Shown here: positions 14,967 through 56,279 of the stretch, in pieces
Layout of the letters: each line of letters opens with the position of its first letter
How positions within the stretch are numbered: the stretch's first letter is position 1
DNA from: Kiritimatiellia bacterium
GTDB lineage: Bacteria > Verrucomicrobiota > Kiritimatiellia > RFP12 > UBA1067
NCBI GenBank assembly: GCA_017454745.1
Contig: JAFTCL010000048.1
Coordinates: 22,534 to 86,533, forward strand
Length of the DNA stretch: 64,000 nt
Reading direction: 5' to 3'
Program-made: the position numbers and the translations under genes
The notes under the pieces: model-generated
Seen by the model: only the letters and a program-made list of their open reading frames with translations
What the model was told of the DNA's origin: nothing
Databases searched by the model: none

Positions 14967-15169
14967 CCGCGCCCGGATTGACTATTGCCCCGGTTTTTGC
15001 TAAACTGTTTTTGATTTTCTTTGGCGGTGTATGCCCTTGAAAGAAAAGCGAGGACGGAATGACGGCGAGAGCAAGATATTTCGCATCAATTGCGGCGATG
15101 TAAAGGTGGCAAACGTGACCTTTGCGGGAGTCATTGTTTGTCGTTTCCATGCCTGAGGAAGGAGACTTT

Positions 15170-16285
15170 ATGAATGAGTTGAAGTATGTCGATCCCAAAG
15201 CCGATCTGACTTTCAAGAAGGTTTTTGGCGAACACCCGGACTTGATAACAAGTCTGTTGAATGCGTTGCTGCCCTTGCCGGAGGATGGCCGGATTGTCTC
15301 TATCGAATATCTTACCCCGGAGATTGTTCCCGATGATCCGCTTCACAAGGACAGCATTGTGGATGTCCGCTGCAAGGATCAGAAAGACCGCCAGTTCATT
15401 GTAGAAATGCAGATGATATGGTCTCCGGACTACAACCAGCGCGCTCTTTTCAACGCCGCAAAGGCGTACTCCCGCGAACTTCCGGCGGGCGGGGACTACT
15501 GCAACCTCAAAACAGTCTATTCGCTGAATCTTTTGAACGACAACCTTGATCTTGATGTTCCGCAGTGGTATCACCTTTATCGTCTGGAACACCACAAGGT
15601 CAAAGGCGAGACGATAGACGGAATCCAGCTTGTTTTCGTTGAACTCAAGAAGTTCGAGCCGCACACCTGGCCGGAGCGAAAGATGGCGGTGCTGTGGCTT
15701 CGTTTCCTTACGGAGATTGACGGCAACACGCGCAAGGCCCCGCCGGAACTGGAGGCGAATCCGGAAGTCAGGAAAGCCCTGGAAATGGTGGAGGTTGCCG
15801 CCCTCACCCCGGAAGAGCGGGCGAGGTACGACGGATTTCAGGACTGGCTCTGCCGCGAAACGCGGCGCGCCAACGCCGAGAAAAGACTAAAGGACGCCGA
15901 GAAAGATCTGGAAAGACTTCCCGAGCTTAAGGCGGAGCTTGACGCGGCAAAGTCCGAGCTTGACACGGCAAAGTCCGAGCTTGACACGGCAAAGTCCGAG
16001 CTTGACACGGCAAAGTCCGAACTTGACACGGCAAAGTCCGAGCTTGACACGGCGAAGTTCGAGCTTGACACGGCGAAGTTCGAGCTTGACACGGCAAAGT
16101 CCGAGCGCGACGCGGCAAAGTCCGAACTTGACGCGGCAAAGTCCGAGCGCGACGCGGCGGTAGAAAAGATGCGGCAAGACAAACTCCGGACCGCCCGGAA
16201 CCTAAAGGCCATGAATCTTGCCAACGAGCAAATCGCGGCGGCAACCGGTCTTACCGCCGCTGAAATCGACGCGCTCCAACCTTAA
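15170..16285 (+). CDS. Rpn-family recombination-promoting nuclease / putative transposase (PD-(D/E)XK; YhgA-like), with an internal heptad-repeat coiled-coil insertion
   Basis: Rpn-like N-terminus KYVDPKADLTFKKVFGEHPDLITSLLNALL. Rpn-type C-terminal tail LANEQIAAATGLTAAEIDALQP. Strong RBS (GAGGAAGGAGAC) before the ATG at 15170. Confidence 0.7.
   Translation: MNELKYVDPKADLTFKKVFGEHPDLITSLLNALLPLPEDGRIVSIEYLTPEIVPDDPLHKDSIVDVRCKDQKDRQFIVEMQMIWSPDYNQRALFNAAKAYSRELPAGGDYCNLKTVYSLNLLNDNLDLDVPQWYHLYRLEHHKVKGETIDGIQLVFVELKKFEPHTWPERKMAVLWLRFLTEIDGNTRKAPPELEANPEVRKALEMVEVAALTPEERARYDGFQDWLCRETRRANAEKRLKDAEKDLERLPELKAELDAAKSELDTAKSELDTAKSELDTAKSELDTAKSELDTAKFELDTAKFELDTAKSERDAAKSELDAAKSERDAAVEKMRQDKLRTARNLKAMNLANEQIAAATGLTAAEIDALQP
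15927..16166 (+). repeat. About 11 tandem copies of a 21-bp unit (GCAAAGTCCGAGCTTGACACG) encoding [SELDTAK]n inside the Rpn gene
   Basis: Near-perfect in-frame 21-bp tandem repeats. The last copies are degenerate (TTC/CGC variants). Confidence 0.9.
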
Positions 16286-17681: not shown

Positions 17682-19034
17682 TTACTTCACTTCCCACACG
17701 CCGCCGGGGCCGAACAGGCGGTCGAGGAGTGCGGGCATGAGACCAAGGCGCTGCACCAAGTCCGCCCCGAAATACCTCGCGCGCATATAGGGAATACCGG
17801 CGTACGTCTCGCGGAAGCGCGCGCGGGAGACGCCGATCTCCTCCGGCTCCGCCGGCGCACCCACCTTGCGCAGATTCTCCTTAACTTCCGCGAAAGGCAT
17901 GAGCTGCGCGCGGATCTTCGCGGCGAGGTCGCCCCAGTTGTCGCGGATCGCCTTCAACTCCTTGCGGAGCGAGTCCTTGGACGGAAACTTCTTCGCGTAT
18001 TCGAGTTCCGCGCGCGTGACGTGCGCGGGACGGCCCGGAAAAACGGACGGGAAAGTTGCCTTCACGGCATCGAACGACGGCCACCACGCGGCGACCTTTT
18101 CCTCCACATCCATTTTCGAGAGGTCGTGCTCCAGTAGGAATTCGAGCGTGGCGGTGGAGACGAGAGTGCCGATGCCCACCTTGAAACCGTGCGACACGAA
18201 TCTACCGTTGAAGGAGAGGTCCTCCATGTCCCAATAGTGCGACACCTGATGCTCGGTGCCGCTCGCCGGGCGCGAGGAACCCATCGCCTGCATGGCAAAC
18301 GCGCTCATCACGAGGCCTTCGCAGAGTTTGCGCACTTCGCGCTCGTCTCCGGAAGCGCAGCCGGAGGGATTGGAGAGCGTGTCGCGCAGGGGATCTTGTA
18401 CGAGCCTCCACGCAAGGGGGTGTATGGCTTCGGCCCCGACGAGGTCGGCGATTATCCAGTCCGCCCCGGCGGGGATCTTCGCGATGAGGTCCGCGTATCC
18501 GCTCGCGGTCATCTCCTTCGGCGCGGCCGCCGCGACGGCGCTGTCCACGATGCAACCGAGCGGCGCCTTGCAGTCCATCGTCTGTTTCATGCCGTCTTTC
18601 GTAATGGCGGCGCCGTATGCGGTGTAGCCGTCCATCGAGGCGGCAGTGCCCACGACCATGTACCGAAGACCCAGTTCGCCGCAGGCGCGTTTGGTGAGAT
18701 CATTGATGACGCCGGAGCCGACGGCCACGGGAATCGCGCCGTCTGCGGCGGCTATAGCCCCGCGCACTTCCTCCACCTTCCCGTAGGTGGCGTGAAAGTC
18801 GGAACCGTCGGGGTTGATGACATACTCGGTCACCTCGCGTCCGGCCGCCTTCAGGATTTCGTTCACGCGGATTCCGGCCACAGCCCGCGTATTCGGGTCG
18901 TCTATCACGATAGCCTTGCCCGCCTCCGGGAACAGCTCGCCGAACATACGCGCGACGGCCTCGGTAGCCCCCGGACCGACCTCGCACGCCTTCGTATCGG
19001 TGGTCTTGGTCAACGCCTCTTCTATCATCGTCAT
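17682..19034 (-). CDS. Iron-containing alcohol dehydrogenase / dehydroquinate synthase-fold enzyme resembling sn-glycerol-1-phosphate dehydrogenase (AraM/EgsA family)
   Basis: Glycine-rich NAD-binding segment VAVGSGVINDLTK. G1PDH-like overall length and architecture. The ATG at 19034 has an AGAGGA RBS, whereas the track start at 19082 is a TTG. Confidence 0.5.
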   Translation of the reverse strand: MTMIEEALTKTTDTKACEVGPGATEAVARMFGELFPEAGKAIVIDDPNTRAVAGIRVNEILKAAGREVTEYVINPDGSDFHATYGKVEEVRGAIAAADGAIPVAVGSGVINDLTKRACGELGLRYMVVGTAASMDGYTAYGAAITKDGMKQTMDCKAPLGCIVDSAVAAAAPKEMTASGYADLIAKIPAGADWIIADLVGAEAIHPLAWRLVQDPLRDTLSNPSGCASGDEREVRKLCEGLVMSAFAMQAMGSSRPASGTEHQVSHYWDMEDLSFNGRFVSHGFKVGIGTLVSTATLEFLLEHDLSKMDVEEKVAAWWPSFDAVKATFPSVFPGRPAHVTRAELEYAKKFPSKDSLRKELKAIRDNWGDLAAKIRAQLMPFAEVKENLRKVGAPAEPEEIGVSRARFRETYAGIPYMRARYFGADLVQRLGLMPALLDRLFGPGGVWEVK

Positions 19035-19140
19035 TTTGCAGTCCTCTTGTGTTTGCCTAAAAATCTCCGAACTTGAAACCAATATATATTTTTAGCACAA
19101 CACGGCCGCTTGAGTCAACAATGACTTGCAAAACACGGCG

Positions 19141-19170
19141 GACAGGGTGGGAGATAGGGAGGGACGCCCC
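19141..19170 (+). repeat. Second copy of the REP-like G-rich repeat (GGACAGGGTGGGAGATAGGGAGGGACGCCC)
   Basis: Matches 3372-3416. Lies in an AT-rich leader upstream of the giant gene. Confidence 0.55.
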
Positions 19171-19296
19171 CACGCGAAAAATACGGGGCGAATCGGTTTC
19201 GGCTTGACGGGTAAGGCATACAAATGTTATCTTCATAATATTTTTCTTTTTTCTGTTGCACGTTAAGTTAACGATTGTCAGGAAAGGTTATTAATC

Positions 19297-22200
19297 ATGA
19301 TGAACGGTTTTTTGCGTTTTGTGCAAACGGGATGTCTAGTTTTCACATCTCTAATTCTCCTGATGGCGGACAACGCAAATGGGTTGACCGCCTACTCTTA
19401 TGTCCAGAAGGGGCTGGCCGCCTGTTGGGACGGTATCGACAACGCAGGGTCCGGGTCGCACGATTCTTCCGTCCGCACATGGAAAGATTTGACCGGAAAC
19501 GGCTACGACGGCATATTATCGGATATCGTTTCGTGGGAGGACAATTGCTGGTCCACCGCAGTGAGCGGCCGCCCCGTTAAGCTTCCGAATTCGTTCTCCT
19601 ATCTCACCGCCGCACGGACTTTCACCGTGGATTGCGCATTCAGCCCGTCCAGGGCCGAGAAGAGCGCTTCGGCTCGCGAAACGGTTTTCGGACAGTACGA
19701 CGGCAGCTACAACGGCACATTCAACATCGAACACAACCACAACAACCATCCCGCCGGATGCCTTCGTTTTTACATGAATAAAGGGCAGATCGACAAATAC
19801 AGCACGGGTGTGGTTCTGGCCAACCAGAACGCGACGGTCGCGCTGACGGTCACGCCGGCAAAGCAGGTTCTATACATCGACGGCGCGAGCGACACCGTCT
19901 CCACAACCAGTCTGTCCACATTGTACTCCAGCAAAGACACTTACATCGGTGGCGAAACGTCTCGAGAAAGCTTTGGGTTCCGGGGGCGCTACTACGGTTG
20001 CCGCTTCTACGACCGCGCGTTGACTGCGGAAGAGGTGGCGGTGAACCACGCCGTTGACGCCATCCGTTACTGGGGCGCCTCCCCAAACGATTTCACGCTC
20101 TCCGGCGGATACTGCTTTGACGCAGAAGGCGAGTTGCTGATCGACGTAACCGCCAATGTGACCGACGGAGGCGGCAAAGTCTGCGTCGGCACGGGTGGCG
20201 ACGCCTCCGATGCCATCTCCGCAACCATCAACCAGAACGGCACGGAATCCGTCACCTTCACGGCCGTGCCCGACGAGGGCTACGAATTCGCCACATGGGT
20301 GCTGGAGGACGGTGCGATGCTGGACGAAGGCAGCAGTCTCACCGACCCGACAATCAGCATATACGCAAAATGGCCGCTCGCCGTCACGGCGACGTTCCGC
20401 GAGAAAGGCAAGCTGACCGCCTACTCGTACGTGCAGAAGGGGCTGGTCGCCTGCTGGGACGGCATCGACAACGCAGGCACCGGCGAACATGACGAGGAAA
20501 CCCGCGTTTGGAAAGACCTGACCGGAAACGGCTATAACGGTACGCTCGGCAGCGACGTTACCTGGGCGGAGAATGGTTGGCAGAACGAAGCAAACGAAAA
20601 GCCCGTCTCGCTTGGCTACGGATTCTCCACCGTCACCGAACCGTGCAACTTTACAATCGATTTCACCGTCACGCCGTCACGCGCCCCCTGCCGCGAAATC
20701 TTTTTCGGCCAGTTCGGCTGGGACTACGGCTCAATCAACCTGGAACGGAAGGCAAACGGACGGCTGCGCTGCTATTACAACTATGATGAAGTCGATTTCG
20801 AAAGCACACAGGCGATTGCCGCCAACGAAACGGCGAGCTTCACCGTCACCACCACGCCCGGCAAACAGGCCGTGTGGAAGAACGGCGTGAAAGATGTAGA
20901 GCAGACCGACAAGGCGATCAGCGCCATGTCCGGCGGCAAGCCCACCTATATCGGCGCGGACGGGACAGGAAACAGCAACCGGAAGAGCTTCAACTTCCAC
21001 GGCACCTACCACGGCTGCCGCGTATATGACCGCGTACTGACCGACGCCGAAATCGCCGTAAACCACGCGGTCGACGCCATCCGCTACCGTGGGGCGTCCG
21101 CCGGCTCGTTCACACTCTCCGGCGGTTATTCCTTCAACAATTCGGGCAACTTGTTAATCGACCTGACCGCGACGGCCTCGGCCGGCGGCAAGGTCTGCTC
21201 CGGAACGGCGGACGTGGCGGCGGCTACCGCCGTCGCCACCATCAGCCAGGACGGAACCGTTTCCGCCGCCTTCACCGCCGTGCCGGACAATGGCTACGAA
21301 TTCGTAGCGTGGGACGTGGAAAATGGCGGCACGATCATCGGAGGTTCGACGTCCGACGCGACGATCAACATCTCCGCCCGGTGGCCGCTCGTTCTGACCG
21401 CAGTCTTTCGTCCGGCCCGAGCGGCATTCCCCGCGACAACGGTCGCAGACTACGTGAAAGACGGGCTGGTGATGTGGTTCGACGGCGTGGACAACGCGGG
21501 CGCAGGTCGGCACGACGGTGCGGCGGCGGCGTGGGCCGACCTCTCCGGCAACGGCAACGACGCCGTTGCGGTGGGGCCGGGCCTGGGATGGGCGGACAAC
21601 TCCTGCACCAACGCCATCGACGGCAAGCAGACGGGCGAAGCGGGCCTGTTCAGGCTGAACGGCGCCGTGGCGCCGGTTATCGCCAACCGGACCTTCACGC
21701 TGGAAATGGCCATTCGCCCCGGCTTCGTCAAAAACCGCAAAGTGCTCTTTGGCTCGTACGACGGCGCTAGCGGGTTCAACCTGGAAGAGAACGATTCGGG
21801 AATGTTCCGCGTCTTCTACAACAACACGCCGAACGTCGTGACCACCGTGCCGATGGTGAAGGACGAGGAAGCCGTATTCTCCGTTGTCAGCACGGCGGAC
21901 GGGGTTGCCGTCTATAAGAACGGCGTTCCGGTCTATCGCTACGAAGGGGCGATCGACGCCAAAGGCACGATTGCCGCGCTTGAAGATTCCGTCTATTATC
22001 TGGGCGGAGAGCGGCAGCGCGAAGGCTTCACGTACCGCGGCGCCATCTATTCTTTCCGGCTGTACAGCCGCGCCCTGACCTCGGCAGAGGTGTTGCGCAA
22101 CACGCGGCTCGACCAGCAGCGGCTTCTGGCGAATACGACGCTCTGGTCGGACGCGACGGGCGGATCGTGGATGGATAGCGCCTCATGGAGCGGAGGACTG

Positions 22201-24021
22201 CCCAACACGCTGGCACCGGCAATCGCCACGCTGGCCGGGGCGGACGTGCGGATGGGCTTGGCGCAGACGGCCCCGAACACCGCCAACGTCACGCTGGCCA
22301 ATCCGGACGGCACCTCCGTGCTGACGCTTGCAAGCGGCGCGACGCTTCCGGTGCCGGACAACTCCCTGGCCATCGGCGGCGGCGGCGAATTGCGCGTGGA
22401 AACGGGCGGCACACTCGCGCTGGACGTCACCGGTAACAACCCGACCCCGCGCCTGACCGTGGCAGACGGCGGCAAACTTACCGTTGACGGCGGCACCGTG
22501 AAGTTGACGAAATCTCCCGTCTCCATCAACGTTTTCGGCAGCGAAGGCCGTACCGGCACGCTGGAAATCGTTTCCGGTCGAATGGAAACCACAGTCAGCA
22601 ACACCGGACAGGACGGCGTGGCCGTGCTGAAGGGCGGACTCCTGCGAATGACCGGGGGAAATCTCACGCTTAACCGCACTGGGAGCTATAACAACGGCGG
22701 CAATCTTGTGGATGACGGCGGAGCGGTAGACCTTTCCGGAGACGCGGCTCTGATTGCGCACAAGACCGGAATCACCATCGGTTCCGGCACGTTCCGCATG
22801 GCCGATGCCTCCCACATCGACTTCCTTACGGACACGGGCAAGGATGACACTGTCTATAGAGTTCTATTGCAGCCGGGCGTTGGGCGGGAAACGGTCATGA
22901 CGGTCGACGATTCCGCAACGATCACCCCCGATCCGCTTTCCGGCCAGATGCAGTTCTTCGTCGGCTACCAGAACGCAGGATCGCGCACCATCCTGAACTG
23001 GAATTCGACCCAAACGCTGAAAGCTTTGCGTACGTTTGCCGTCGGTTTTGTCAAAGGATACGGCGAACTGAATATATCGCGGGGACAGATCATCGGCGGA
23101 TACAACGGATTCCGCGTCGCGCAGAACTACGCAAATCCGTCCGCCGACGCATGCGTTACGGGTGTGGTGAACGTAATCGGCGGCAGCGTGCGTAACATAG
23201 ACACCGAAAACGACTCCTCGACGTTCCAAGGGCTGATCATCGGTTCTGGCGGATGCGTAAAGATCGCCAACCCCGGCTATTTCTGGGGCACGCTGAACCT
23301 GTACGACGGCGGCGCGGTGACGAACTCCAGCGAATACTTCGGCATCGGCATCGGTTACGCGGAGGGCGTCCTGAACCAACACGGCGGCGAGGTAATCCAC
23401 AACAACAGCTCCAATAACGAATTCGTGATCGGGGCGTGGGGCGGCAAAGGCTCAATGGTCATGGATGGCGGCAGGGCGTGGTCGAAACGCGACGTCTATG
23501 TGGGCGGCGCCACAACCAACAACCTGTACTACAAGCGCTGGAAACTCTACACCCAATGCCCGGTGGACAACCACTGCGCCACCGGACTCCTGCGCGTGGC
23601 GGCGGGCAGATTCGACACGGCGGGCTCCATCTGGGTCAGCCAGGACGGACAGGGGACATTGGAAATCGGCCCCGCCGGACAGGTCTCCGCGAACAACGTC
23701 ATCCTGACCAACACGGTCGCGGAGCTGACCGGCACCGTTGACCTCGCCGCAAAACTCGCCTTCGTTCTGGACGAGGACGGCGCCGGGCTGCTTACCGTGA
23801 CCAACGCGCTGACCATCGGCCAGGGCGTGACCATGGAGGTGGATGCCACCGAAAGGAAAGGGCGGGGCGGAAACATCCCCCTCATCCGCTTTGGGGAGAG
23901 CGAGGGCGAGTTCAGCGCCATCACCGTCAAAGGCGGCGGCACGGTCAAAAAGTTGACCGTTGACGGGATGTCGGGTTACTGGTACCAATTCAGCCCCGGT
24001 ACCATCATCACCATCCTATAG
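19297..24021 (+). CDS. Giant secreted surface protein: three tandem LamG-like (concanavalin A-like, Laminin_G_3) modules, followed by a beta-helix / autotransporter-associated-like repeat region
   Basis: Signal-like N-terminus. The LamG signature DLTGNGYDG / DLTGNGYNG / DLSGNGNDA appears three times, each with a downstream RFYDRALTAEEVAVNHAVDAIRY-type block. The modules recur at DNA level with ~1026-bp periodicity (19381, 20407, 21433). The C-terminal third is rich in G/T/N beta-strand repeats. Confidence 0.7.
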   Translation: MMNGFLRFVQTGCLVFTSLILLMADNANGLTAYSYVQKGLAACWDGIDNAGSGSHDSSVRTWKDLTGNGYDGILSDIVSWEDNCWSTAVSGRPVKLPNSFSYLTAARTFTVDCAFSPSRAEKSASARETVFGQYDGSYNGTFNIEHNHNNHPAGCLRFYMNKGQIDKYSTGVVLANQNATVALTVTPAKQVLYIDGASDTVSTTSLSTLYSSKDTYIGGETSRESFGFRGRYYGCRFYDRALTAEEVAVNHAVDAIRYWGASPNDFTLSGGYCFDAEGELLIDVTANVTDGGGKVCVGTGGDASDAISATINQNGTESVTFTAVPDEGYEFATWVLEDGAMLDEGSSLTDPTISIYAKWPLAVTATFREKGKLTAYSYVQKGLVACWDGIDNAGTGEHDEETRVWKDLTGNGYNGTLGSDVTWAENGWQNEANEKPVSLGYGFSTVTEPCNFTIDFTVTPSRAPCREIFFGQFGWDYGSINLERKANGRLRCYYNYDEVDFESTQAIAANETASFTVTTTPGKQAVWKNGVKDVEQTDKAISAMSGGKPTYIGADGTGNSNRKSFNFHGTYHGCRVYDRVLTDAEIAVNHAVDAIRYRGASAGSFTLSGGYSFNNSGNLLIDLTATASAGGKVCSGTADVAAATAVATISQDGTVSAAFTAVPDNGYEFVAWDVENGGTIIGGSTSDATINISARWPLVLTAVFRPARAAFPATTVADYVKDGLVMWFDGVDNAGAGRHDGAAAAWADLSGNGNDAVAVGPGLGWADNSCTNAIDGKQTGEAGLFRLNGAVAPVIANRTFTLEMAIRPGFVKNRKVLFGSYDGASGFNLEENDSGMFRVFYNNTPNVVTTVPMVKDEEAVFSVVSTADGVAVYKNGVPVYRYEGAIDAKGTIAALEDSVYYLGGERQREGFTYRGAIYSFRLYSRALTSAEVLRNTRLDQQRLLANTTLWSDATGGSWMDSASWSGGLPNTLAPAIATLAGADVRMGLAQTAPNTANVTLANPDGTSVLTLASGATLPVPDNSLAIGGGGELRVETGGTLALDVTGNNPTPRLTVADGGKLTVDGGTVKLTKSPVSINVFGSEGRTGTLEIVSGRMETTVSNTGQDGVAVLKGGLLRMTGGNLTLNRTGSYNNGGNLVDDGGAVDLSGDAALIAHKTGITIGSGTFRMADASHIDFLTDTGKDDTVYRVLLQPGVGRETVMTVDDSATITPDPLSGQMQFFVGYQNAGSRTILNWNSTQTLKALRTFAVGFVKGYGELNISRGQIIGGYNGFRVAQNYANPSADACVTGVVNVIGGSVRNIDTENDSSTFQGLIIGSGGCVKIANPGYFWGTLNLYDGGAVTNSSEYFGIGIGYAEGVLNQHGGEVIHNNSSNNEFVIGAWGGKGSMVMDGGRAWSKRDVYVGGATTNNLYYKRWKLYTQCPVDNHCATGLLRVAAGRFDTAGSIWVSQDGQGTLEIGPAGQVSANNVILTNTVAELTGTVDLAAKLAFVLDEDGAGLLTVTNALTIGQGVTMEVDATERKGRGGNIPLIRFGESEGEFSAITVKGGGTVKKLTVDGMSGYWYQFSPGTIITIL

Positions 24022-24073
24022 CGACGGCTCGGCATACCGCTTCCGCCCGCAGTAAAAATGACTGTTTAGCGGT

Positions 24074-24102
24074 TTGACTTTTGTCCCTAAAAATGCTATA
24101 TT
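24074..24102 (+). promoter_or_regulatory. Putative sigma70 promoter: TTGACT, 17-nt spacer, TATATT
   Basis: Near-consensus hexamers ~75 nt upstream of the citrate synthase ATG. GGAGG RBS at 24166-24170. Confidence 0.5.
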
Positions 24103-24177
24103 ACCTTAATTCCATTCGTGGGGTTCAGACCTTATTTTTGCCGAGGCTGGATCCCGAATGGAGTTAGGAGGTTTCTA

Positions 24178-25554
24178 ATGTTGATGACGCAATCCGCGAG
24201 TCCGCAAATTGATGCGGAGTTGCTAAAAGGTTACGCGGATAAAATCCGGGTTACCGGCAAGATCGCCCCCGAACTCTACCAAAAGTACGATGTCCGGAGG
24301 GGGCTACGCAACCCGAACGGTTCTGGTGTGCTGGTCGGACTGACCAATATCGGTTCCGTCCACGGCTACGTGACATCCGAGAGCGAAAAGGTCTCGGTGC
24401 CGGGCCAGCTTTTCTACCGCGGCATCAACGTGGCGGATTTCGTTAAAGGCTTCCAGAGCGAACACCGGTTCGGCTTCGAAGAATGCGCGTACCTGCTGCT
24501 GATGGGCGAGTTGCCTAAGCGCGAGGAGCTGGTGGTGTGGAAATCCGAGCTGGGTGCGCTGCACCGGCTCCCGGACGGTTTCAAAGAGACCGCTATCATC
24601 CGTTCGCCGGGCGTGGACATCATGAACAGCATCGCCCGCGCGGTGTTGACGGCCTATATCTTCGACCCGGCGCCGGATCGGCTCGACCTGGAGACAACGC
24701 TGCGCCAGAGCATTGAGCTGATCGCGCAGTTCCCGACCATCGCCGCCTACGCCTATCAGGCCAAGGCACACTACCACCTGGGGCAGTCAATGGTCCTGCG
24801 CTATCCCGACCCGGAACTTTCCACCGCCGAGAATTTTTTGCGGCTGATCCGGGCCGACGGCTACTATTCCAGGTTCGAGGCGGAGGTGCTGGACCTGTGC
24901 CTGGTGCTCCACGCCGAACACGGCGGCGGCACCAACTCGACCTTCACCACCCACGTGATGTCGTCCGCGTTCACCGACACTTACGCCGCCATCGCGTCCG
25001 CCGTACTCTCGCTCAAAGGGCTGCGCCACGGCGGCGCCAACCTGCGGGTGATGAAACAGATGTCTGAGGCCAAGAAGAAGATCAAGCATTGGGACAACGA
25101 AAACGAGGTGGCGGACCATCTGTGGAACATTCTCAAGCGCGAGGCGGGCGACGGCACCGGGTTGATTTACGGTTTGGGCCACGCGGTTTACACCCTCTCC
25201 GATCCCCGTGCCGAGATGTTGCGCGACTGCGCCCGCGCGTTGGCCAAGTCAAAAGGCCGCGAGGAAGAGATGGGTCTGTACGAAACCGTCGAGCGGTTGG
25301 GCCCGGAAATCTTCAACCAGTTCCGGGGCGGCAAACACGACCTGTGCTGCAATGTCGATTTCTACTCCGGGTTTGTTTACGATATGCTGAACATCCCCAA
25401 CGACCTCTTCACCCCAATCTTCGCGGTGGCCCGTGTGGTGGGCTGGTGCGCCCACCGGTTGGAAGAGCTGATTAACGGCGGCCCTATCATCCGCCCCGCC
25501 TACAAGGCGTTGACCCAGCCCAGAAAGTATGTGCCGCAGGCCGAACGCGGTTAA
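24178..25554 (+). CDS. Citrate synthase
   Basis: Citrate synthase catalytic and oxaloacetate-binding regions LVLHAEHGGGTNSTF and GLGHAVY, plus LFYRGI, with a CoA-binding-like C-terminus. Starts at MLMTQSASP just after the RBS. Confidence 0.8.
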   Translation: MLMTQSASPQIDAELLKGYADKIRVTGKIAPELYQKYDVRRGLRNPNGSGVLVGLTNIGSVHGYVTSESEKVSVPGQLFYRGINVADFVKGFQSEHRFGFEECAYLLLMGELPKREELVVWKSELGALHRLPDGFKETAIIRSPGVDIMNSIARAVLTAYIFDPAPDRLDLETTLRQSIELIAQFPTIAAYAYQAKAHYHLGQSMVLRYPDPELSTAENFLRLIRADGYYSRFEAEVLDLCLVLHAEHGGGTNSTFTTHVMSSAFTDTYAAIASAVLSLKGLRHGGANLRVMKQMSEAKKKIKHWDNENEVADHLWNILKREAGDGTGLIYGLGHAVYTLSDPRAEMLRDCARALAKSKGREEEMGLYETVERLGPEIFNQFRGGKHDLCCNVDFYSGFVYDMLNIPNDLFTPIFAVARVVGWCAHRLEELINGGPIIRPAYKALTQPRKYVPQAERG

Positions 25555-33726: not shown

Positions 33727-36700
33727 TTAGTTTGCCGTTTGGCCGCTTCTCACCATAACAGGGCCGATAAGCCCGGAGGGCAGTAGCGCGTCTTCTTTGG
33801 ACCAGTGTTTCCACGTGGTGAAGGTGTGACGCCCGGTTGGGGATTTCTTGCCCTGTTTCACCCATTCGGGGATTTCTTTAACCCCGTACTCTTTTACGCC
33901 CTTGCGCGGTACGCCCTGCCACACGCAGTCTTCCTTGTATAGCCGGTCGTCGCCGATCAGGCGGTTCGCCCAAAGGTTCGTAACCCTGATTTCAAGGTCG
34001 ATGGCGTCCTTGCCCTTAACGGCGTCGGTGATGTCAAGGCGGAAGGGCGGTTTCCACAGTACCGGGAACTTGTTGCCGTTTACCGTGACCTCCGCGAAGT
34101 TCTTGACAACGCCGAGATCAAGCATCACGCGGTCGCCGGACCCGATAAGCGAGCGCAAGGCGTCGCCTTCGATGCGTTTCGCGTAGGTGGCGGTTCCTGA
34201 GAAATAGCATATCCCGGGATCGGAATGCTCGTCCCACGGGATGAGCGAATCAAAGGTGGTTTTTCCCGGAGCTTCCCATCCCGCCGGGAAGGATACCTGC
34301 CAAGGACCGGGAACGACCAGCGCCGCCGCGGGTTGCGCGGAGAGTTTGCTGCTCGTTCCGTTGCTGTCCGTAAGTGTCGCCGTGAGCGGCTGCCAGGCGA
34401 CAATCTTTCCGTCGCGCCATTCCCAGCTCGGCGGCGGTTGCGGGGTTTCCCTGTTGTCGGGAAGTTTGAACCAACCGTGTTCGTTGAAGGTCGATGTTGT
34501 CTCGAATCCGTCGTACACGTAGGTCACGCGCAGCTGCTTGACCGTCTTGAAGAGCGGGTCGCGCCCGGCCAGACTGTTCTCCGCCTGCACCGCGATTTTG
34601 CCGTTTTTCACGGCGGCGGCGATTTTAGCGGTCACGTCGAAAACCGTCGGTTCGGCGGGGGGATTCCAGTCGGGGTCGATTATGCCGTACCACGCGCTTT
34701 GGAGTTTCGCGCCTTCCGGCAGCTTGTAGGACTTGCCCTCTTTGACGATATCGCGCGTAGCGCGGCCGTTCAAGGTGTATCGCACTTCTAGCGCTTTCAC
34801 CTTTTGGGAGGCGGGATCTTCGCCCATTACGGAGTTTTTCACTTCGACCGTCACGCCGGGCTTGATACGCCCGGAAACTTCGATGCATTCCGGACGGATG
34901 CCGTTAAACACGCCGTATTCCGCCTTCTTGATGGTAAGGGTGTGGGGTTTTTCTGGGAGCGCGGGATCGTGGCGCGCGTTCACCTTGGCGTCAACGGTAA
35001 CGAAGTGGTTGCCTGCCGCCGGGCGGCGGAACACCACGAACGAGGATCCGCTCACCGGATAGTCCAGCTTTACAATCGTGCGTCCTTTTTCTTCGCGCCA
35101 GACGTTGGCTGCGGCGATTTTGCCTGTTTCCGCGTCCCATATTTCCGGGGTGCGGCCGGTCTGGCGGAAGGAGGCCTCGAAGGTCGCGTTGGTGGCGTTG
35201 TCGAGCGCGACGAAATACCAGTCCGTACCATCCGCCTGCCGGTGGATCCAGGATGCCGTGGGCTCGCCGGTCGTGAAGTCGGGGGCCACTCCCAGTTTAA
35301 CGAGCGCATCGCCGGCGTTGCTTTCGATGACGCCCTTTGCCCATACTTTGGCGACGAGCGCCTTCATGTTGGTGTCCGACTGCGGCCAGCCGCGCAATCC
35401 GGGCGCGCGCGACGGACGCGACACGCTGCTAACCTTTGCGCCGGCATCGAGCAGTTCGCCGACCTTCCTGACGCATGCCTCGCTCATAGTGTCGGTTTTC
35501 GGGAGAACCAGCAATGCGTACGAAACGCCGCCCGGCGCCACCACGCGCCCGTTCTTTACGGTAAGCGCCATTAGCACCTTGGTGGCGCAGTAGTCGTAGT
35601 CGTAGCCGGCGGGGAGTTTTGTGTCAGTGCCGCCCAGCGGGACGGCTTCGCCGCACCAGAACAGGACATCCGCCGCGAAGGTGCCTTCCTGAAGCATCCA
35701 TTGGCAGCGCGTCTGGTAGCGGAACCAGTCGTTGGCGTATTTCCACCACGTTTGGGTGCGGTCGAGGTGCATTCCCCAGCGGCCCATCGTCATGCCGGGC
35801 AGGTACTTGTCGCCCGGCCAGGGCTGGTGCGTGAAGCGGTGGTAGATGATGCGGTTGATGCCGGCGGCGAACACCTTGTCGCCTTGGCTTTTGATCGTGT
35901 ACGGGGTGGTGCGCCAGCGTCCGCCGATCACCGGGTTGGCGGTGAAGGATTCGGTGGCGGCGTAGCGGCGGCCCCACACGTGCGCGATAGTGGCGGCGAG
36001 CCGCGAGTTGCCGATACCGGCCACGCCATGCTCTCCGCGCTCGGCGGCCGACCAAAACTCGGCCATGGGGATGTCGATGTCCTGACCGTACTGGAGGTTG
36101 TCCGCCGTACAGTTTCCGTACGGCTCGATGGAGCAGAGCAGACCGTGGCGGTGGCAAAGTTCCGTGAGCCGTCCGGCGTAGTTCTCCGCAAAGAGGTCGG
36201 CCACGACGCGGCGGAAATCTTCAAGGAAACGTTCGGTCTCTTCGACGCTGCCGACGATCCGCCCGGCAAACACCGGGAGATAACGGACGATGGAGTATCC
36301 CATGCGCTTCTCGAAGGTCTTGTCGAAGTTCTGGGTCCAGTTTTGGGTGTTGACCTCGTAGCTGTCCACCAGAATGTTGTTGAAGCCGGTCTCGCCGATT
36401 TTCCCCGGTTCGATGCCAAGGGTGTTGCAAAGCCTGGTGACATATTGGTCGAAGTGGTAATCCATCGCCTCGGCGGAGAGTTTGTCCACCTCAAGTCCGC
36501 GCCCCTTCTCCGACGCGGGGTGGTTGCAACGCCCGTTGCAGATGTAACCGATGCGCAATATCGTCCATTCGCCGACGGGGACGTCCCATTCGAGCGATCC
36601 GTCCGCTTTCATCCGCGCCGTCAGCTCCACCACGGAATCCTTTGCCACGACCGTTCCGGCAGCGGCGGGTTTTGTGTCGCGGTTCACCTTGCCGCGCTCG

Positions 36701-37299
36701 GCGAAGGTCTTTTCCGCGAGATTGCTGAGCGTGGCCCCGGGTTTAGGCGTGGGGTAGGCGAGCACCGCGATATCTTCGTAGAAGCCGTTGTCTTTTGCGG
36801 TGCGCGGCAGGATGCCGGAAAAACGGGTTGGCCCTTTGGCGGCGGTCTCGGTGAACACGACACGTTTCATGCCGTTCTTCGGCGGGTTCCACGGGCCGCC
36901 GGATGAGGACCACCCGGAGCAGTTGGGAATGCAGATTTCAAGGCCGAGCCTTTTAGCCTCGGAATGGGCGTGACGGAACATGTCGAACCATTCGGGCGAG
37001 TTGAATTTGAGCGGCCCGGGCGGGATGGCGCATCCGGCGTCAAACATTTGAACTCCGCCGATCCCGGCTTTGGCGAGCGCCTCGAAGTCGCAGGTGATGC
37101 CTTCCTTCGTTACGTTGCCGTTCATCATGTGGTACCAAGTGTGCGGCTTGGCGGAGTCTGGCGGAGCCTTGAATCCCTCCTCCAGCGTCAACGCGAAAAG
37201 CGGCAATGCCGCTACACAGGCAACGGCGCCGAGAACTGCTATTCTAACTTCTTTAGTCATAAGGCTGACCTTTCTTTTGGTTTTCGCCGATTCCGGCAT
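33727..37299 (-). CDS. Large secreted glycoside hydrolase, GH106-like (alpha-L-rhamnosidase family), with a GH2-type sugar-binding-like C-terminal domain
   Basis: Signal peptide. The N-terminal HTWYHMMNGNVTKEGITCDFEALAKAGIGGVQMFDAG block is GH106-like. C-terminus FAEVTVNGNKFPVLWKPPFRLDITD...LEIRVTNLWANRLIGD. The start may be the ATG at 37260 (MTKEV) instead. Confidence 0.45.
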   Translation of the reverse strand: MPESAKTKRKVSLMTKEVRIAVLGAVACVAALPLFALTLEEGFKAPPDSAKPHTWYHMMNGNVTKEGITCDFEALAKAGIGGVQMFDAGCAIPPGPLKFNSPEWFDMFRHAHSEAKRLGLEICIPNCSGWSSSGGPWNPPKNGMKRVVFTETAAKGPTRFSGILPRTAKDNGFYEDIAVLAYPTPKPGATLSNLAEKTFAERGKVNRDTKPAAAGTVVAKDSVVELTARMKADGSLEWDVPVGEWTILRIGYICNGRCNHPASEKGRGLEVDKLSAEAMDYHFDQYVTRLCNTLGIEPGKIGETGFNNILVDSYEVNTQNWTQNFDKTFEKRMGYSIVRYLPVFAGRIVGSVEETERFLEDFRRVVADLFAENYAGRLTELCHRHGLLCSIEPYGNCTADNLQYGQDIDIPMAEFWSAAERGEHGVAGIGNSRLAATIAHVWGRRYAATESFTANPVIGGRWRTTPYTIKSQGDKVFAAGINRIIYHRFTHQPWPGDKYLPGMTMGRWGMHLDRTQTWWKYANDWFRYQTRCQWMLQEGTFAADVLFWCGEAVPLGGTDTKLPAGYDYDYCATKVLMALTVKNGRVVAPGGVSYALLVLPKTDTMSEACVRKVGELLDAGAKVSSVSRPSRAPGLRGWPQSDTNMKALVAKVWAKGVIESNAGDALVKLGVAPDFTTGEPTASWIHRQADGTDWYFVALDNATNATFEASFRQTGRTPEIWDAETGKIAAANVWREEKGRTIVKLDYPVSGSSFVVFRRPAAGNHFVTVDAKVNARHDPALPEKPHTLTIKKAEYGVFNGIRPECIEVSGRIKPGVTVEVKNSVMGEDPASQKVKALEVRYTLNGRATRDIVKEGKSYKLPEGAKLQSAWYGIIDPDWNPPAEPTVFDVTAKIAAAVKNGKIAVQAENSLAGRDPLFKTVKQLRVTYVYDGFETTSTFNEHGWFKLPDNRETPQPPPSWEWRDGKIVAWQPLTATLTDSNGTSSKLSAQPAAALVVPGPWQVSFPAGWEAPGKTTFDSLIPWDEHSDPGICYFSGTATYAKRIEGDALRSLIGSGDRVMLDLGVVKNFAEVTVNGNKFPVLWKPPFRLDITDAVKGKDAIDLEIRVTNLWANRLIGDDRLYKEDCVWQGVPRKGVKEYGVKEIPEWVKQGKKSPTGRHTFTTWKHWSKEDALLPSGLIGPVMVRSGQTAN

Positions 37300-50744: not shown

Positions 50745-53700
50745 TTGTCTATGACTGACTTGAAATGTTTGAGCGGCGCGGTGGCGCTTTTCGCGCTTAC
50801 GCTTGGCGCGGTGGAACTTGAGACCGCCGGTGAGCTGCTGGTGGATCTCGACGCATCGACGCTGTCGGGATATTCGGAAGGTGACGGTGTTAGGGTGTGG
50901 CCCAATGCGGGCAGTCAGGCCGACTTCGTCTATGTTGACACCCACAGCAAGAATACTCCCCCGACCTACCGCCTCCGCAACGGTGCGCCGGCTCTGCGCT
51001 TCCTCGGCTCCGCATCGGGCAGCATGACGAACAACGTGCCCATGCCCGATTCGCTCACGGGCAACAGCGCCTGGACGGTTGAAGGATGGATCGCGCCCAC
51101 GCAAGAGAGAACGGATTTCCGCTACTTCCTGAGCATGCCGTATTATAAGGAAGGCACTTCCTCCACGCCCGAAGCCTACAAGCGCTGGGCGTTCCGCATG
51201 GACATGAAGACCGACCTCTATGCCGTGGAGCACAACTCATATCAGCTCTACTGGGGCCGTCGCAGTCCGGAGAATGCGATTTACCGCCCCGAGGTCGGGA
51301 AGTGGCACCACATCTGCGTTGTGCACGAGGCATCGGGCTACGAGCGCGTCTATGTGAACGGCCGTGTCGCCTCGGTGGGAAACACCGCGCTCAACCTCTC
51401 AAACGCGGATCCGAGCTTTTTCATCATCTCCGGCATCTACCGCCAGTCGACCGGCGCATGGGAGCGCCAGAACTATGCCGACTACGGACGCATCCGCATC
51501 CAGACCGGGGCGCTCATGACCGCGCAGGTGATCAGCAACTACAATGCCGAGAAGGAGCATTACGGCGTGACCGACGTGCCGGACACGCTCTGGACCGACG
51601 GCGCCACCTGGTACAACGGCAAGGCGCTCGCGCTTGACGACAATCTCATCATCGAGGGAGACCAGCCGCTTGTGATCGACAACGGCGCGAGCAACGCCGT
51701 GCACTTCATCACGGTGAACGCGGCGAAGAACACGGGGCTCACGATCGACAACGGCAGCATGCTCACGGTCGCCTACGGCAACGACCTTGTCCAGCTCGGC
51801 AACGTCGCCGGCGGCACGTTCTCGCTTCTGGTTCCGAACGGAACATTCGCCACCCCGAACAATTCGATCACGCTCGGCCTCTACAACAGCGGCGTGGGCG
51901 TGATTGGCGGCCGCGAGGACGCCTTGGGCATCGTCAACTGCGGCAGCTCCCTGCGCGTGGGGCACTATCCCGGCGGTTCGGGCGAATTCACCATCAAGAC
52001 GAACGGCATCGTGAACATTGCAAGCACCATCCGCATTGCCGACGGCAATGATGCCGAGGGTCATATAACGGTGGAGGAGGGCGGCGAGCTCACGGTTCTG
52101 GGCGACACGTACATCTGCTCCGGCACCGGGACGGGCGTTCTCGACGTGTACGGCACGTTCACCCACGGCACGGCCGACACCACGCCGACCTGCTACATTG
52201 CGGGCAGTGCGACCGGCGTCGGCACGCTTAACTTCCATCCCGGCTCCGTCGCCAACATCCAGATCTTCCGCAGCACCTCCGGCTCCACCACGAGCACGGT
52301 CAACATCGACGGCGCGACCTTGCGCACAATGCGCGGGCGCACATCGATCGTCGAGCCGCCCGTCATATTCAACATCAAGAACACGGTGACGTTCGACATC
52401 CCCGCGGGCATGAACGGCACGATCCGCACCACGGTCAACGACCTGACGGAGAACGGCGCGGCCACCATTGTCAAGACTGGCGGCGGCATTTTGTTCCTTA
52501 CGCCAAACGACGGTCAGACGCCAAGCGACATCTCCTCGACGTTCATCGTAAGGGAGGGCCAAGTCACGATCGGCAACGCAAACGCGCTCGCCGCCAGCTC
52601 CACGGCCACCTTCAAGCTCGAGGGCGGCACGGTGAGCGCCGACTACGTAGGCGGCGCGGCGGCGCTTCTCGCGCGCATCGACAAGTCGTCCGTGGGCAAC
52701 TTCATGCTCCACGGCAACAACGTGGCGGAGAATCTCGACTTCTCCGAGTATCCCGGTCTCACCATCATCCCCAATGGTACCTTCACGTACACGGGAACGA
52801 TAACGCCTTACCAGAACAAGTACATCTTCCGCCCCACTAATGGTCTCATGGTCTATGCCGGCAACATCTCCGACAAGGACGGGTTCCCCGCGTCAGTCGA
52901 AATCTACGGCGCGACAGATACGGACGGCGTGACGCTTTCCGGCCTTAACGACGGCATGAGCGGCAACATCAGCGTGTACAAGGGCATCCTCGGCATCTCC
53001 GGCTCGTCGTATGCGGCGGGTAACCCAGACTTGACGAAACTCTATTTCGCGGAAGGCACCTCCTTCAAGCTTGACGCGCTTGTGGGCTCGACCTTCTTCA
53101 CTTCGCGGATTGCCGAAGGCTCTAAGCCGGCGGCGATTCTGCTCACCGACAACTCCGCGAACTGCAGCGTCGATCTTTCCCGTTTCCCCGGCTGTCGCCT
53201 GGGTACCGACAAGACCGGTTCGGTCATGATTCAGACGGGCTCGATTTTCCCGAACGCCGACAATGTCTTCCTGCTTGGTGGCGGTGCCGTGCCGTATTAC
53301 CAGACGAGCCATCCGGGCTTCCAGCCCTCAGTTATGTCGGACAACTCCGCCGGCGCGGCTCGCGTTGAGGTGGGGACGGTCGGTATCGTCAACCTTTCGA
53401 ATGCGGCAAACACCTATTCCGGCGGCACGTCGATTCTCGACGGCGGCACCGTCTTCGTGACGGCGGACGGATTCGGCGCCATCCCGGCGGAATTCGATGA
53501 GGACAACATCTACATCAACGGCGGTATCCTCCGCAACGGCAACACCGTTTTCTCCCTTGCCCCGACGCGCGGCGTTAAAATCGGTCCGGACGGCGCGATA
53601 CTCCATCCTTGGGGTACCTACTCAATTGAAATCCCCGGCGGCTTGACCGGCGCCGGACCGGTCCAGATCACCGACGGCGGCTTTATCATTCTGTCGGGCG

Positions 53701-56047: not shown

Positions 56048-56279
56048 TTTGTCTTAAGGATAACACTGACGCCGCGATCAGCATTTGTGATGGTACTGGA
56101 CCAGATGGAAAGTAGATACAATGGCGGAGATACATACGGCCGGCTTCGGCGATGTTTTGCTTCGCCCGCGCCTCCTATTATCGGGATTGGTGGGCTGTTG
56201 CCATTATCTGATCTGCTGGAACCGGTTTCCGTAGCAACCCGCCCCGTAAGGATTAAGCGTGGGAATGGGATCGCATAGG

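What the first reader, a model, noticed from the sequence alone, without database searches (positions are those of the whole stretch)
19297..24021. A 1574-aa surface protein built from three tandem ~1026-bp LamG modules plus a beta-helix region
The DNA-level module periodicity (19381, 20407, 21433) shows recent intragenic tandem duplication. Each module pairs a LamG lectin-like domain (DLTGNGYDG...RFYDRALTAEEV) with a small Ig/beta-sandwich domain. Modular, duplicating lectin domains suggest rapidly evolving glycan-binding adhesins, which fits the rich glycoside-hydrolase complement of this genome.
Basis: seen in the sequence. Interest (0 to 1): 0.5.

Follow-up and report, generated by a model that had tools for sequence, protein, structure and literature searches.

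The report
Kiritimatiellae LamG–beta-helix surface protein
This is a large exported protein of a ruminant-gut Kiritimatiellae bacterium with three old, diverged lectin-like (LamG) domains on an adhesin-like beta-helix stalk; the repeats are not recent, and the most notable feature is an unannotated stalk family that ends in a conserved eight-residue tail, possibly a sorting signal.

Summary
The ORF (19297-24021, +, 1574 aa) is real. After a Sec-type signal peptide come two 343-aa modules, each a LamG domain, a linker helix and an InlB-B-repeat-like domain. A third LamG follows without the small domain, then about 620 aa that Pfam does not recognise.

"Recent duplication" is refuted:
- M1 and M2 are 53% identical in protein and 61% in DNA, with third codon positions near chance. 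M3 is 32% identical to either.
- TRF finds nothing.
- In a module tree the LamG copies group by position across orthologs that are 60-66% identical.

Related proteins carry 1-4 LamG copies, and the first LamG occurs in two swapped types among orthologs.

The C-terminal module defines a family of at least 1152 clusters at 50% identity. Every named member sampled is a Kiritimatiellia "hypothetical protein". The family nearly always ends in P-G-T-h-h-h-h-[R/K]-COOH. An unrelated lectin protein in the same window (50745-56000) has the same tail.

Best reading: an exported, multivalent binding protein displayed on a beta-helix stalk, with a candidate new C-terminal sorting tag. Glycan binding and surface location are inferred, not shown.

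The parts
19204..19233 (+). sigma-70-like promoter candidate (TTGACG-18-TATCTT, TG before the -10 hexamer)
   Evidence: a consensus match only. It lies in the 214-bp AT-rich intergenic region upstream of the gene.
19280..19287 (+). ribosome-binding site AGGAAAGG, 9 nt before the ATG at 19297
   Evidence: Read from the sequence. It supports the 19297 start over the Met23 start used in the database entry P0001.
19297..24021 (+). complete CDS, 1574 aa including the stop codon TAG
19297..19383 (+). Sec-type signal peptide (aa 1-29; MMNGFLR / hydrophobic core / ANG|L); no lipobox
   Evidence: Hydrophobic N-terminus. Orthologs have canonical signal peptides that end A-x-G just before LTAxSYVQ. The cleavage site is inferred.
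19384..20082 (+). LamG domain 1 (aa 30-262) with the conserved YVQkGL..wDGIDNAG.G.H..W.DLtGNG start and a C-terminal RFYDRALTAEE motif plus linker helix
   Evidence: Pfam Laminin_G_3. AF2 pLDDT 96. Foldseek matches to ConA-like lectin domains. Family HMM.
20083..20409 (+). InlB-B-repeat-like small beta domain 1 (aa 263-371)
   Evidence: Pfam Flg_new_2 E=5.4e-8. All-beta in the AF2 model.
20410..21099 (+). LamG domain 2 (aa 372-601)
   Evidence: Sub-threshold Pfam 'Sialidase N-terminal' hit at aa 480-587 (22.4 bits, below the cutoff of 26).
21100..21438 (+). InlB-B-repeat-like small beta domain 2 (aa 602-714)
   Evidence: Pfam Flg_new_2 E=1.1e-6
21439..22131 (+). LamG domain 3 (aa 715-945). A distinct type, 32% identical to domains 1 and 2, with no following small domain.
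   Evidence: It clusters with the beta-helix-proximal LamG of P0009, P0010 and P0013. AF2 model.
22132..23994 (+). C-terminal module (aa 946-1566). It has an N-cap motif (W..GG.W.D...WS.G.P), a right-handed parallel beta-helix (about aa 948-1414) and a terminal all-beta subdomain (about aa 1428-1565).
23995..24018 (+). extreme C-terminal tail PGTIITIL. Family consensus is P-G-[TM]-h-[IL]-[IL]-[VIF]-[RK]-COOH. Here the last codon is CTA (Leu) where relatives have Arg or Lys.
   Evidence: Not packed in the AF2 model (no secondary structure from model residue 852; the last 3 residues have pLDDT <50).

Best explanation
The gene encodes a Sec-exported protein of about 165 kDa from a ruminant-gut Kiritimatiellae bacterium. 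It appears to be transcribed on its own.

After signal-peptide removal, the mature protein begins directly with three concanavalin-A-like LamG domains. The first two are spaced by a linker helix and an InlB-B-repeat-like domain. These sit on a rigid right-handed beta-helix of about 470 residues, followed by a small beta subdomain and a hydrophobic octapeptide tail.

The most likely working model treats the beta-helix module as a non-enzymatic stalk. It is a lineage-specific scaffold used by more than a thousand Kiritimatiellia protein clusters to carry different N-terminal heads. The three LamG domains would then be the ligand-binding heads, giving multivalent binding to a polysaccharide or other surface ligand. 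The conserved C-terminal tail would be the signal that directs export across, or retention at, the outer membrane. This resembles an autotransporter passenger without its barrel.

Shown here: the architecture, the folds, the age of the duplications, the extent of the family and the conservation of the tail.
Inferred: surface location, glycan binding and the sorting role of the tail.
For: ORF, start and expression signals:
- ORF, RBS and signal peptide.
- Promoter-like sites lie before this gene and before the next gene.
- Flanking genes are not syntenic in the related genomes L001 and L004.

Domains and folds:
- Pfam finds LamG x3 and Flg_new_2 x2.
- AF2 of module 1 has pLDDT 96. Its nearest structures are lectin-type ConA-like domains: trans-sialidase lectin domain, BoNT Hc-N and GH43 AbnA domain 4.
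- With LamG3 in the query, CBM40 domains and pentraxins also match.

The module looks like a scaffold:
- Across 145 diverse members the conserved columns are almost all Gly, plus a W/W/P cap and a few Asn, Gln and Asp. There is no catalytic constellation.
- The module family has 1152 clusters at E<=1e-3.
- The four of ten sampled clusters that carry a name are all Kiritimatiellia hypothetical proteins.
- The module is C-terminal in 126 of 151 proteins. Heads are variable: LamG in 10 of 44, PATR in 6 of 44, most unannotated.

The tail looks like a signal:
- It is conserved in 79 of 95 and 130 of 151 relatives.
- It occurs after unrelated last domains: B-repeat, LamG, beta-helix and legume lectin.
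- It is absent from other signal-peptide proteins and from spurious ORFs of the window.
- It is unstructured in the model.
Against: - No ligand, localisation or processing data exist for any member.
- LamG folds also mediate protein-protein binding, so glycan binding is not established.
- The gene is not next to carbohydrate-active enzyme genes or any secretion gene. Its neighbours are an MFS transporter, an Fe-ADH, citrate synthase, MscS and hexokinase.
- The tail has only 4-5 hydrophobic residues, so it cannot span a membrane. No cognate machinery was identified.
- In this particular protein the otherwise conserved terminal Arg/Lys is Leu.
Confidence: 0.55

Rival explanations
1. The beta-helix is the functional part: a polysaccharide lyase, hydrolase or epimerase. 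The LamG domains would then act as appended carbohydrate-binding modules that target it to substrate, as in many CAZymes of polysaccharide-degrading PVC bacteria.
For: - The genome window encodes a GH106 rhamnosidase.
- LamG resembles domain 4 of the GH43 arabinanase AbnA.
Against: - The top structural matches are non-enzymatic passenger adhesins.
- No Pfam pectate-lyase, Beta_helix or GH28 model matches even at E<=10.
- Columns conserved at 70% or more across 145 members are glycines plus one Glu, one Asp, two Asn and one Gln, scattered over 260 residues. There is no Asp/Glu/Lys/Arg/His cluster.
Confidence: 0.12
2. It is a structural envelope or matrix component, such as an S-layer-like coat, a fibril or a biofilm-matrix subunit. 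The C-terminal hydrophobic tail would then be a strand-donation or oligomerisation motif rather than a sorting signal, and the LamG domains would mediate protein-protein contacts.
For: - The tail is a short beta-prone hydrophobic run that is left unpaired in the monomer model.
- Thirty of 137 family members with a complete module consist of the module alone behind a signal peptide, as expected for a self-sufficient structural unit.
- Family expansion is very large.
- LamG domains often bind proteins.
Against: - The tail is found after unrelated terminal domains, including proteins without the beta-helix module. This fits a portable signal better than a fold-specific donor strand.
- No acceptor groove or partner was identified.
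- Head domains are diverse and lectin-like.
Confidence: 0.15
3. One reading: a rapidly evolving adhesin whose lectin modules are being amplified by recent intragenic tandem duplication.
For: - The modules are tandem and in register.
- Copy number differs among family members, from 1 to 4.
- The first LamG has two types among orthologs.
Against: - M1 and M2 are 61% identical in DNA, and third codon positions are 47% identical against 35% by chance.
- TRF finds nothing.
- Modules cluster by position across orthologs.
- All eight orthologs keep three LamG domains at the same positions.
- LamG domains are as conserved as the rest of the protein.
Confidence: 0.05

Closest known systems
Classical (type Va) autotransporter adhesins such as UpaB, Ag43, pertactin and Vag8
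   Different: There is no C-terminal 12-stranded beta-barrel translocator. The protein ends in a small beta subdomain of about 140 aa plus an 8-residue tail, and no Autotransporter or PATR model matches. The functional heads are N-terminal LamG domains, which are not typical of autotransporters.
Laminin_G_3 (PF13385) ConA-like lectin domains: trans-sialidase lectin-like domain, CBM40, GH43 AbnA domain 4, clostridial neurotoxin Hc-N, pentraxins
   Different: Sequence identity is only 10-20%. This subfamily has its own invariant N-terminal segment, YVQ.GL...DGIDNAG.G.H...W.DL.GNG, and a conserved linker helix. Ligand specificity is unknown, and the CBM40/Sialidase model scores below its cutoff (22.4 against 26).
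Tripartite C-terminal sorting signals (PEP-CTERM/exosortase, LPXTG/sortase, GlyGly-CTERM/rhombosortase, PGF-CTERM/archaeosortase)
   Same: The tail sits at the extreme C-terminus of signal-peptide-bearing proteins. The order of elements is the same: a small motif (P-G-T), then a hydrophobic run, then a basic residue. It is portable across unrelated domain architectures and restricted to one lineage. The comparison to these signals rests on my own knowledge of those families.
   Different: The hydrophobic run is 4-5 residues, not the ~20-residue transmembrane helix of those signals. There is a single terminal Arg/Lys. No NCBIfam sorting-domain model matches. No sortase-like partner was identified.
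PATR / 'autotransporter-associated beta strand repeat' proteins of PVC bacteria (PF12951, TIGR02601)
   Same: Both are beta-helical, glycine-punctuated repeats with a W..G..W...NW..G.P-type N-cap. Six of 44 members of the same C-terminal-module family, and the neighbouring giant protein at 50745-56000, do match PATR.
   Different: This protein's beta-helix does not match PATR or TIGR02601 at any reported threshold.

Membership tests
Laminin_G_3 (PF13385) / ConA-like lectin superfamily | Profile HMM score above the Pfam gathering threshold | tested here: met
   107.9 bits against a cutoff of 27.6, in three stretches.
Laminin_G_3 (PF13385) / ConA-like lectin superfamily | Beta-sandwich jelly-roll fold | tested here: met
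Laminin_G_3 (PF13385) / ConA-like lectin superfamily | Carbohydrate (or Ca2+-dependent ligand) binding | not testable with these tools
The conserved loop DGIDNAG.G.HD is only a candidate site.
Flg_new_2 / divergent InlB B-repeat (PF18998) | Profile HMM score above the gathering threshold | tested here: met
   47.7 bits against 23.6 for the whole protein. The two copies score E=5.4e-8 and 1.1e-6. There is no copy after LamG3.
Type Va autotransporter | Beta-helical passenger domain behind a Sec signal peptide | tested here: met
Type Va autotransporter | C-terminal beta-barrel translocator domain of about 250-300 aa | tested here: not met
Two-partner secretion TpsA exoprotein | N-terminal TPS secretion domain and an adjacent TpsB gene | tested here: not met
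   The mature N-terminus is a LamG domain. The neighbours are MFS, Fe-ADH and citrate synthase genes, and there are no conserved neighbours.
PATR / autotransporter-associated beta strand repeat (PF12951, TIGR02601) | Repeat HMM match | tested here: not met
   No hit for this protein, although the ORF at 50745-56000 does hit.
PEP-CTERM and other tripartite sorting signals | Signature motif, then a transmembrane helix, then a basic cluster, matched by NCBIfam/TIGRFAM models | tested here: not met
   The tail is 8 residues with 4-5 hydrophobic residues. No NCBIfam hit.
T9SS cargo | C-terminal beta-sandwich CTD of about 80 aa (Por_Secre_tail) | tested here: not met
   No Pfam hit. The tail also follows a LamG domain directly in some relatives, for example P0045 and P0047.
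Recent intragenic tandem duplication | High DNA identity between copies, and copies grouping by gene rather than by position | tested here: not met
   TRF returns 0 rows. DNA identity is 61%, 47% and 50%. Modules form position-specific clades across orthologs.
CBM40 / sialidase N-terminal lectin domain (PF02973) | HMM score above the gathering threshold | tested here: not met
   22.4 bits against a cutoff of 26, in LamG2 only. The similarity is at fold level only.

The most novel reading that the evidence does not exclude
The C-terminal octapeptide [P/R/K]-G-[T/L/M]-h-h-h-h-[R/K]-COOH is a previously undescribed, Kiritimatiellia-specific protein-sorting signal. It would be much shorter than any exosortase- or sortase-type signal. 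The ~620-aa glycine-ruled beta-helix module would be the standard display stalk of this pathway, a 'barrel-less autotransporter' system that exports or anchors hundreds of different head domains, here three LamG lectin-like domains.
Probability: 0.3. Interest if true: 0.7.

Novelty: new variant of a known kind. Interest (0 to 1): 0.4.

Why it matters
Kiritimatiellia are abundant but poorly understood polysaccharide degraders of guts and anoxic sediments, and almost nothing is known about how they build their cell surface.

The LamG repeat architecture that prompted the finding is ordinary. It does, however, lead to a large, unannotated, lineage-specific family: at least 1152 clusters at 50% identity, with no Pfam or NCBIfam model. 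These are beta-helix stalk proteins with a sharply conserved extreme C-terminal tail that is also shared by unrelated lectin proteins.

If the tail is a sorting tag, it would define a new export or anchoring route in the PVC group. It would also give a simple sequence rule for listing the surface proteome of uncultured Kiritimatiellia. If it is not, the family still deserves a domain model so that these proteins stop being annotated as 'hypothetical'.

Tried and rejected
- Tandem Repeats Finder on 18000-25500 found nothing.
- A whole-protein self-BLASTP returned only the identity hit, so the modules were cut out and compared pairwise.
- The word-indexed homolog search with the C-terminal region alone found only 10 proteins. 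The exhaustive profile search found 1152 clusters.
The single-protein scan gave only two goat-omasum MAG orthologs.
- Five literature searches on Kiritimatiellia with LamG, PEP-CTERM, surface proteins or signal peptides found nothing relevant.
- The NCBIfam 'TafC fimbrial protein' hit (26.5 bits against a cutoff of 410) and the 'spike_base' hit (13.4 against 28) were rejected as sub-threshold, LamG-level or chance similarity.
- I checked whether the short tail is an artefact of a recoded or read-through stop. The downstream frame reads RRLGIPLPPAVKMTV* with no hydrophobic continuation, and relatives end at the same point, so this was rejected.
- I looked for conserved neighbours as candidate partners and found none.
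Full report
**1. The observation**

Window 19297..24021 (+) is a single ORF of 1574 aa. An AGGAAAGG ribosome-binding site lies 9 nt upstream of the ATG, and a sigma-70-like promoter match sits at 19204-19233. The next gene, a citrate synthase, has its own promoter-like site at 24074-24102.

Pfam finds three Laminin_G_3 stretches (107.9 bits, cutoff 27.6) and two Flg_new_2 (divergent InlB B-repeat) stretches (47.7 bits, cutoff 23.6). Register offsets are 343 and 341 aa, or 1029 and 1023 bp, so the ~1026-bp period is correct.

Cut into modules:
- M1 (aa 29-371) against M2 (aa 372-714) gives 51% identity, E=8e-110.
- M1 or M2 against M3 (from aa 715) gives about 32% identity, E about 1e-30 to 1e-32, and only over the LamG part.

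Periodic self-similarity is therefore real at the protein level. The third repeat is a LamG domain alone.

**2. 'Recent duplication' is refuted**

Four results argue against it.
- Tandem Repeats Finder reports nothing.
- Blastn detects only two partial M1/M2 segments at 70-77% identity, and nothing for M3.
- On a codon alignment, M1/M2 are 61% identical in DNA, with 47% identity at third positions. The composition-based chance level is 35%. M3 against M1 or M2 gives 47-50% overall and 39-40% at third positions.
- Eight orthologs that are 60-66% identical, all from Kiritimatiellae metagenome assemblies, keep three LamG domains at the same coordinates. Two of them trace to goat-omasum MAGs.

In a neighbour-joining tree of 100 LamG modules, L2 and L3 each form one clade across the orthologs. 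L1 forms two, the type A and type B sets described below. The copies never group by protein. The duplications therefore predate the divergence of these species.

The LamG domains are also not fast-evolving. Mean pairwise identity among orthologs is 62% for L1, 75% for L2 and 69% for L3, against 66% for the beta-helix.

Two kinds of modular evolution do exist:
- LamG copy number ranges from 1 to 4 across the 85 relatives.
- The N-terminal LamG comes in two types among the orthologs. Type A is in the window protein and P0002-P0005. Type B is in P0006-P0008. The two types are 46-48% identical to each other, while the rest of the protein is 55-78% identical. Type B is nearer to LamG modules of paralogous families, at 50-53%. 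This looks like head replacement, not amplification.

**3. Anatomy**

Signal peptide:
- The N-terminus (MMNGFLR, a 16-residue hydrophobic core, then A-N-G|L) is a Sec signal peptide without a lipobox.
- Orthologs have textbook versions that end A-x-G immediately before LTAxSYVQ.
- The database twin P0001 starts at Met23 and lacks the signal peptide. That is probably a start-codon miscall.

Module 1:
- AlphaFold2 on a 28-sequence alignment gives pLDDT 96 and pTM 0.92.
- The model shows a jelly-roll, a conserved linker helix (model residues 216-231) and a small all-beta domain.
- The nearest solved structures are the lectin-like domain of trypanosomal trans-sialidases, the Hc-N domain of clostridial neurotoxins and domain 4 of the GH43 arabinanase AbnA.
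- With LamG3 in the query, CBM40 domains and pentraxins also appear.
- The subfamily's most conserved segment is the N-terminal YVQ.GL...DGIDNAG.G.H...W.DL.GNG (invariant columns). I could not examine its geometry because model coordinates are not exposed.

**4. The C-terminal 630 aa**

Pfam reports nothing even at E<=10, and NCBIfam reports nothing meaningful.

AlphaFold2 of aa 715-1574 gives pLDDT 85 and pTM 0.86. The model is a long run of short strands followed by longer strands, and the last residues are unstructured.

There is no barrel translocator, no TPS domain and no PATR match, so the protein is not an autotransporter or a TpsA in the family sense.

**5. The C-terminal module is a large unannotated family**

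- A profile of aa 946-1574 with ten relatives (alignment A3), searched against 1.84 billion representatives, finds 1152 clusters at E<=1e-3 and 339 at E<=1e-30.
- Of ten sampled clusters, the four that carry a name are all Kiritimatiellia/Kiritimatiellae 'hypothetical protein'.
- Among the best 151 proteins, the module reaches the C-terminus in 126, and 118 have a signal-peptide-like N-terminus.
- Thirty consist of the module alone, and 86 carry more than 400 aa in front of it.
- Those heads are LamG in 10 of 44, PATR in 6 of 44, and mostly without any Pfam match.
- Columns conserved at 70% or more across 145 members are almost exclusively glycines. The others include a W/W/P cap and single Glu, Asp and Gln plus two Asn positions.

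This is the signature of a scaffold rather than an active site.

**6. The tail**

Conservation:
- Of the 95 proteins from the first two searches, 79 end in five uncharged residues plus Arg or Lys.
- Among those 79, Gly is at -7 in 60, Thr or Met at -6 in 50, Ile/Leu/Val/Phe at -4 to -2, and Arg (59) or Lys (20) at -1.
- In the wider module family, 130 of 151 end this way.

Portability:
- The tail follows different last domains: B-repeat (P0011-P0021), LamG (P0045, P0047), the beta-helix module, and a protein whose module is N-terminal (P0130).
- A second giant protein in the window carries it. ORF 50745-56000 (1751 aa) has LamG, PATR and two legume-lectin domains. It shares no significant similarity with the protein under study.
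- That protein ends STIMILR, and its orthologs end ATMITIR, STLMILH and STVLIFR.

Specificity:
- A strict tail pattern hits no other ORF of 100 aa or more in the window or in L001.
- Eight other signal-peptide proteins in the window lack the tail.
- In the AF2 model the tail is not packed against the fold.

This protein's own tail:
- It ends PGTIITIL. The last codon is CTA (Leu), one transversion away from CGA (Arg), and is followed by TAG CGA CGG.
- A few relatives also end in Leu, Gln, Phe or Trp.

The pattern fits a portable C-terminal sorting or retention tag. It does not fit any tripartite signal I know of, because the hydrophobic run is too short and no NCBIfam model matches. No partner gene was found, since flanking genes are not conserved.

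**7. Interpretation**

The protein is best read as an exported, probably surface-displayed, multivalent binding protein. Three lectin-like heads sit on a rigid adhesin-like stalk, with a candidate lineage-specific sorting tail.

Glycan binding is suggested by fold neighbours and by the lifestyle of the host, but it is unproven. The gene is not in a polysaccharide-utilisation context.

The rival readings are an enzymatic beta-helix, a structural or oligomerising subunit, and a recently amplifying adhesin. They are weighed in the structured fields, and the last is contradicted by the data.

**8. Novelty and score**

The LamG/B-repeat/beta-helix architecture is a new variant of a familiar kind of bacterial surface protein.

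The value lies in the unannotated Kiritimatiellia-wide stalk module and its conserved C-terminal tail. Five literature searches found no description of either. Interest is 0.4. If the tail proves to be a new sorting signal, it would deserve about 0.7.

Noticed in passing
window 50745-56000 (+): A second giant exported protein of 1751 aa carries Laminin_G_3, PATR/TIGR02601 beta-strand repeats and two legume-lectin domains. It is unrelated in sequence to the protein under study but ends in the same tail (STIMILR). Three orthologs end ATMITIR, STLMILH and STVLIFR.
   Followed up: partly
window 24013-24027: The last codon of the gene is CTA (Leu) where nearly all relatives have Arg or Lys; CGA would be one transversion away. 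The stop codon TAG is followed in frame by CGA CGG (Arg Arg). This may be a recent point change in the otherwise conserved terminal residue.
   Followed up: partly
window 19297-19365; protein P0001: The identical database protein P0001 is annotated from Met23 (1552 aa) and so lacks the signal peptide. The RBS before the ATG at 19297, and the signal peptides of all orthologs, indicate a start-codon miscall in the public record.
   Followed up: yes
window 19384-20082 versus P0006-P0008 aa ~28-262: The first LamG domain exists in two types among otherwise 60-78% identical orthologs. The types are 46-48% identical to each other, and type B is closer to LamG modules of paralogous families. This suggests replacement of the distal head by recombination.
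   Followed up: partly
window 15122-16285 (+): A PD-(D/E)XK nuclease-family transposase-like gene (PDDEXK_2, E=1.9e-43) lies 3 kb upstream. The flanks of the LamG gene are not syntenic with related genomes (L001, L004), so local rearrangement is possible.
   Followed up: no
window 56259-58715 (+): A hybrid sensor (Reg_prop beta-propellers, Y_Y_Y, HisKA_3 and HATPase) lies directly downstream of the 1751-aa lectin protein. It has the architecture of polysaccharide-sensing regulators.
   Followed up: no
window 33730-37299 (-): A 1190-aa GH106 alpha-L-rhamnosidase with a signal peptide also has an unexpected Pfam match to DnaJ-like_C11_C (E=2e-9) at aa 867-947. It has no C-terminal tail motif.
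   Followed up: no
L001 21412-22158 (-): A rhomboid-family protease gene lies about 7 kb from the ortholog P0006 in a related MAG. It is not adjacent and is absent from the window's neighbourhood, so it is probably unrelated to tail processing. I note it because rhombosortases process some C-terminal sorting signals.
   Followed up: no
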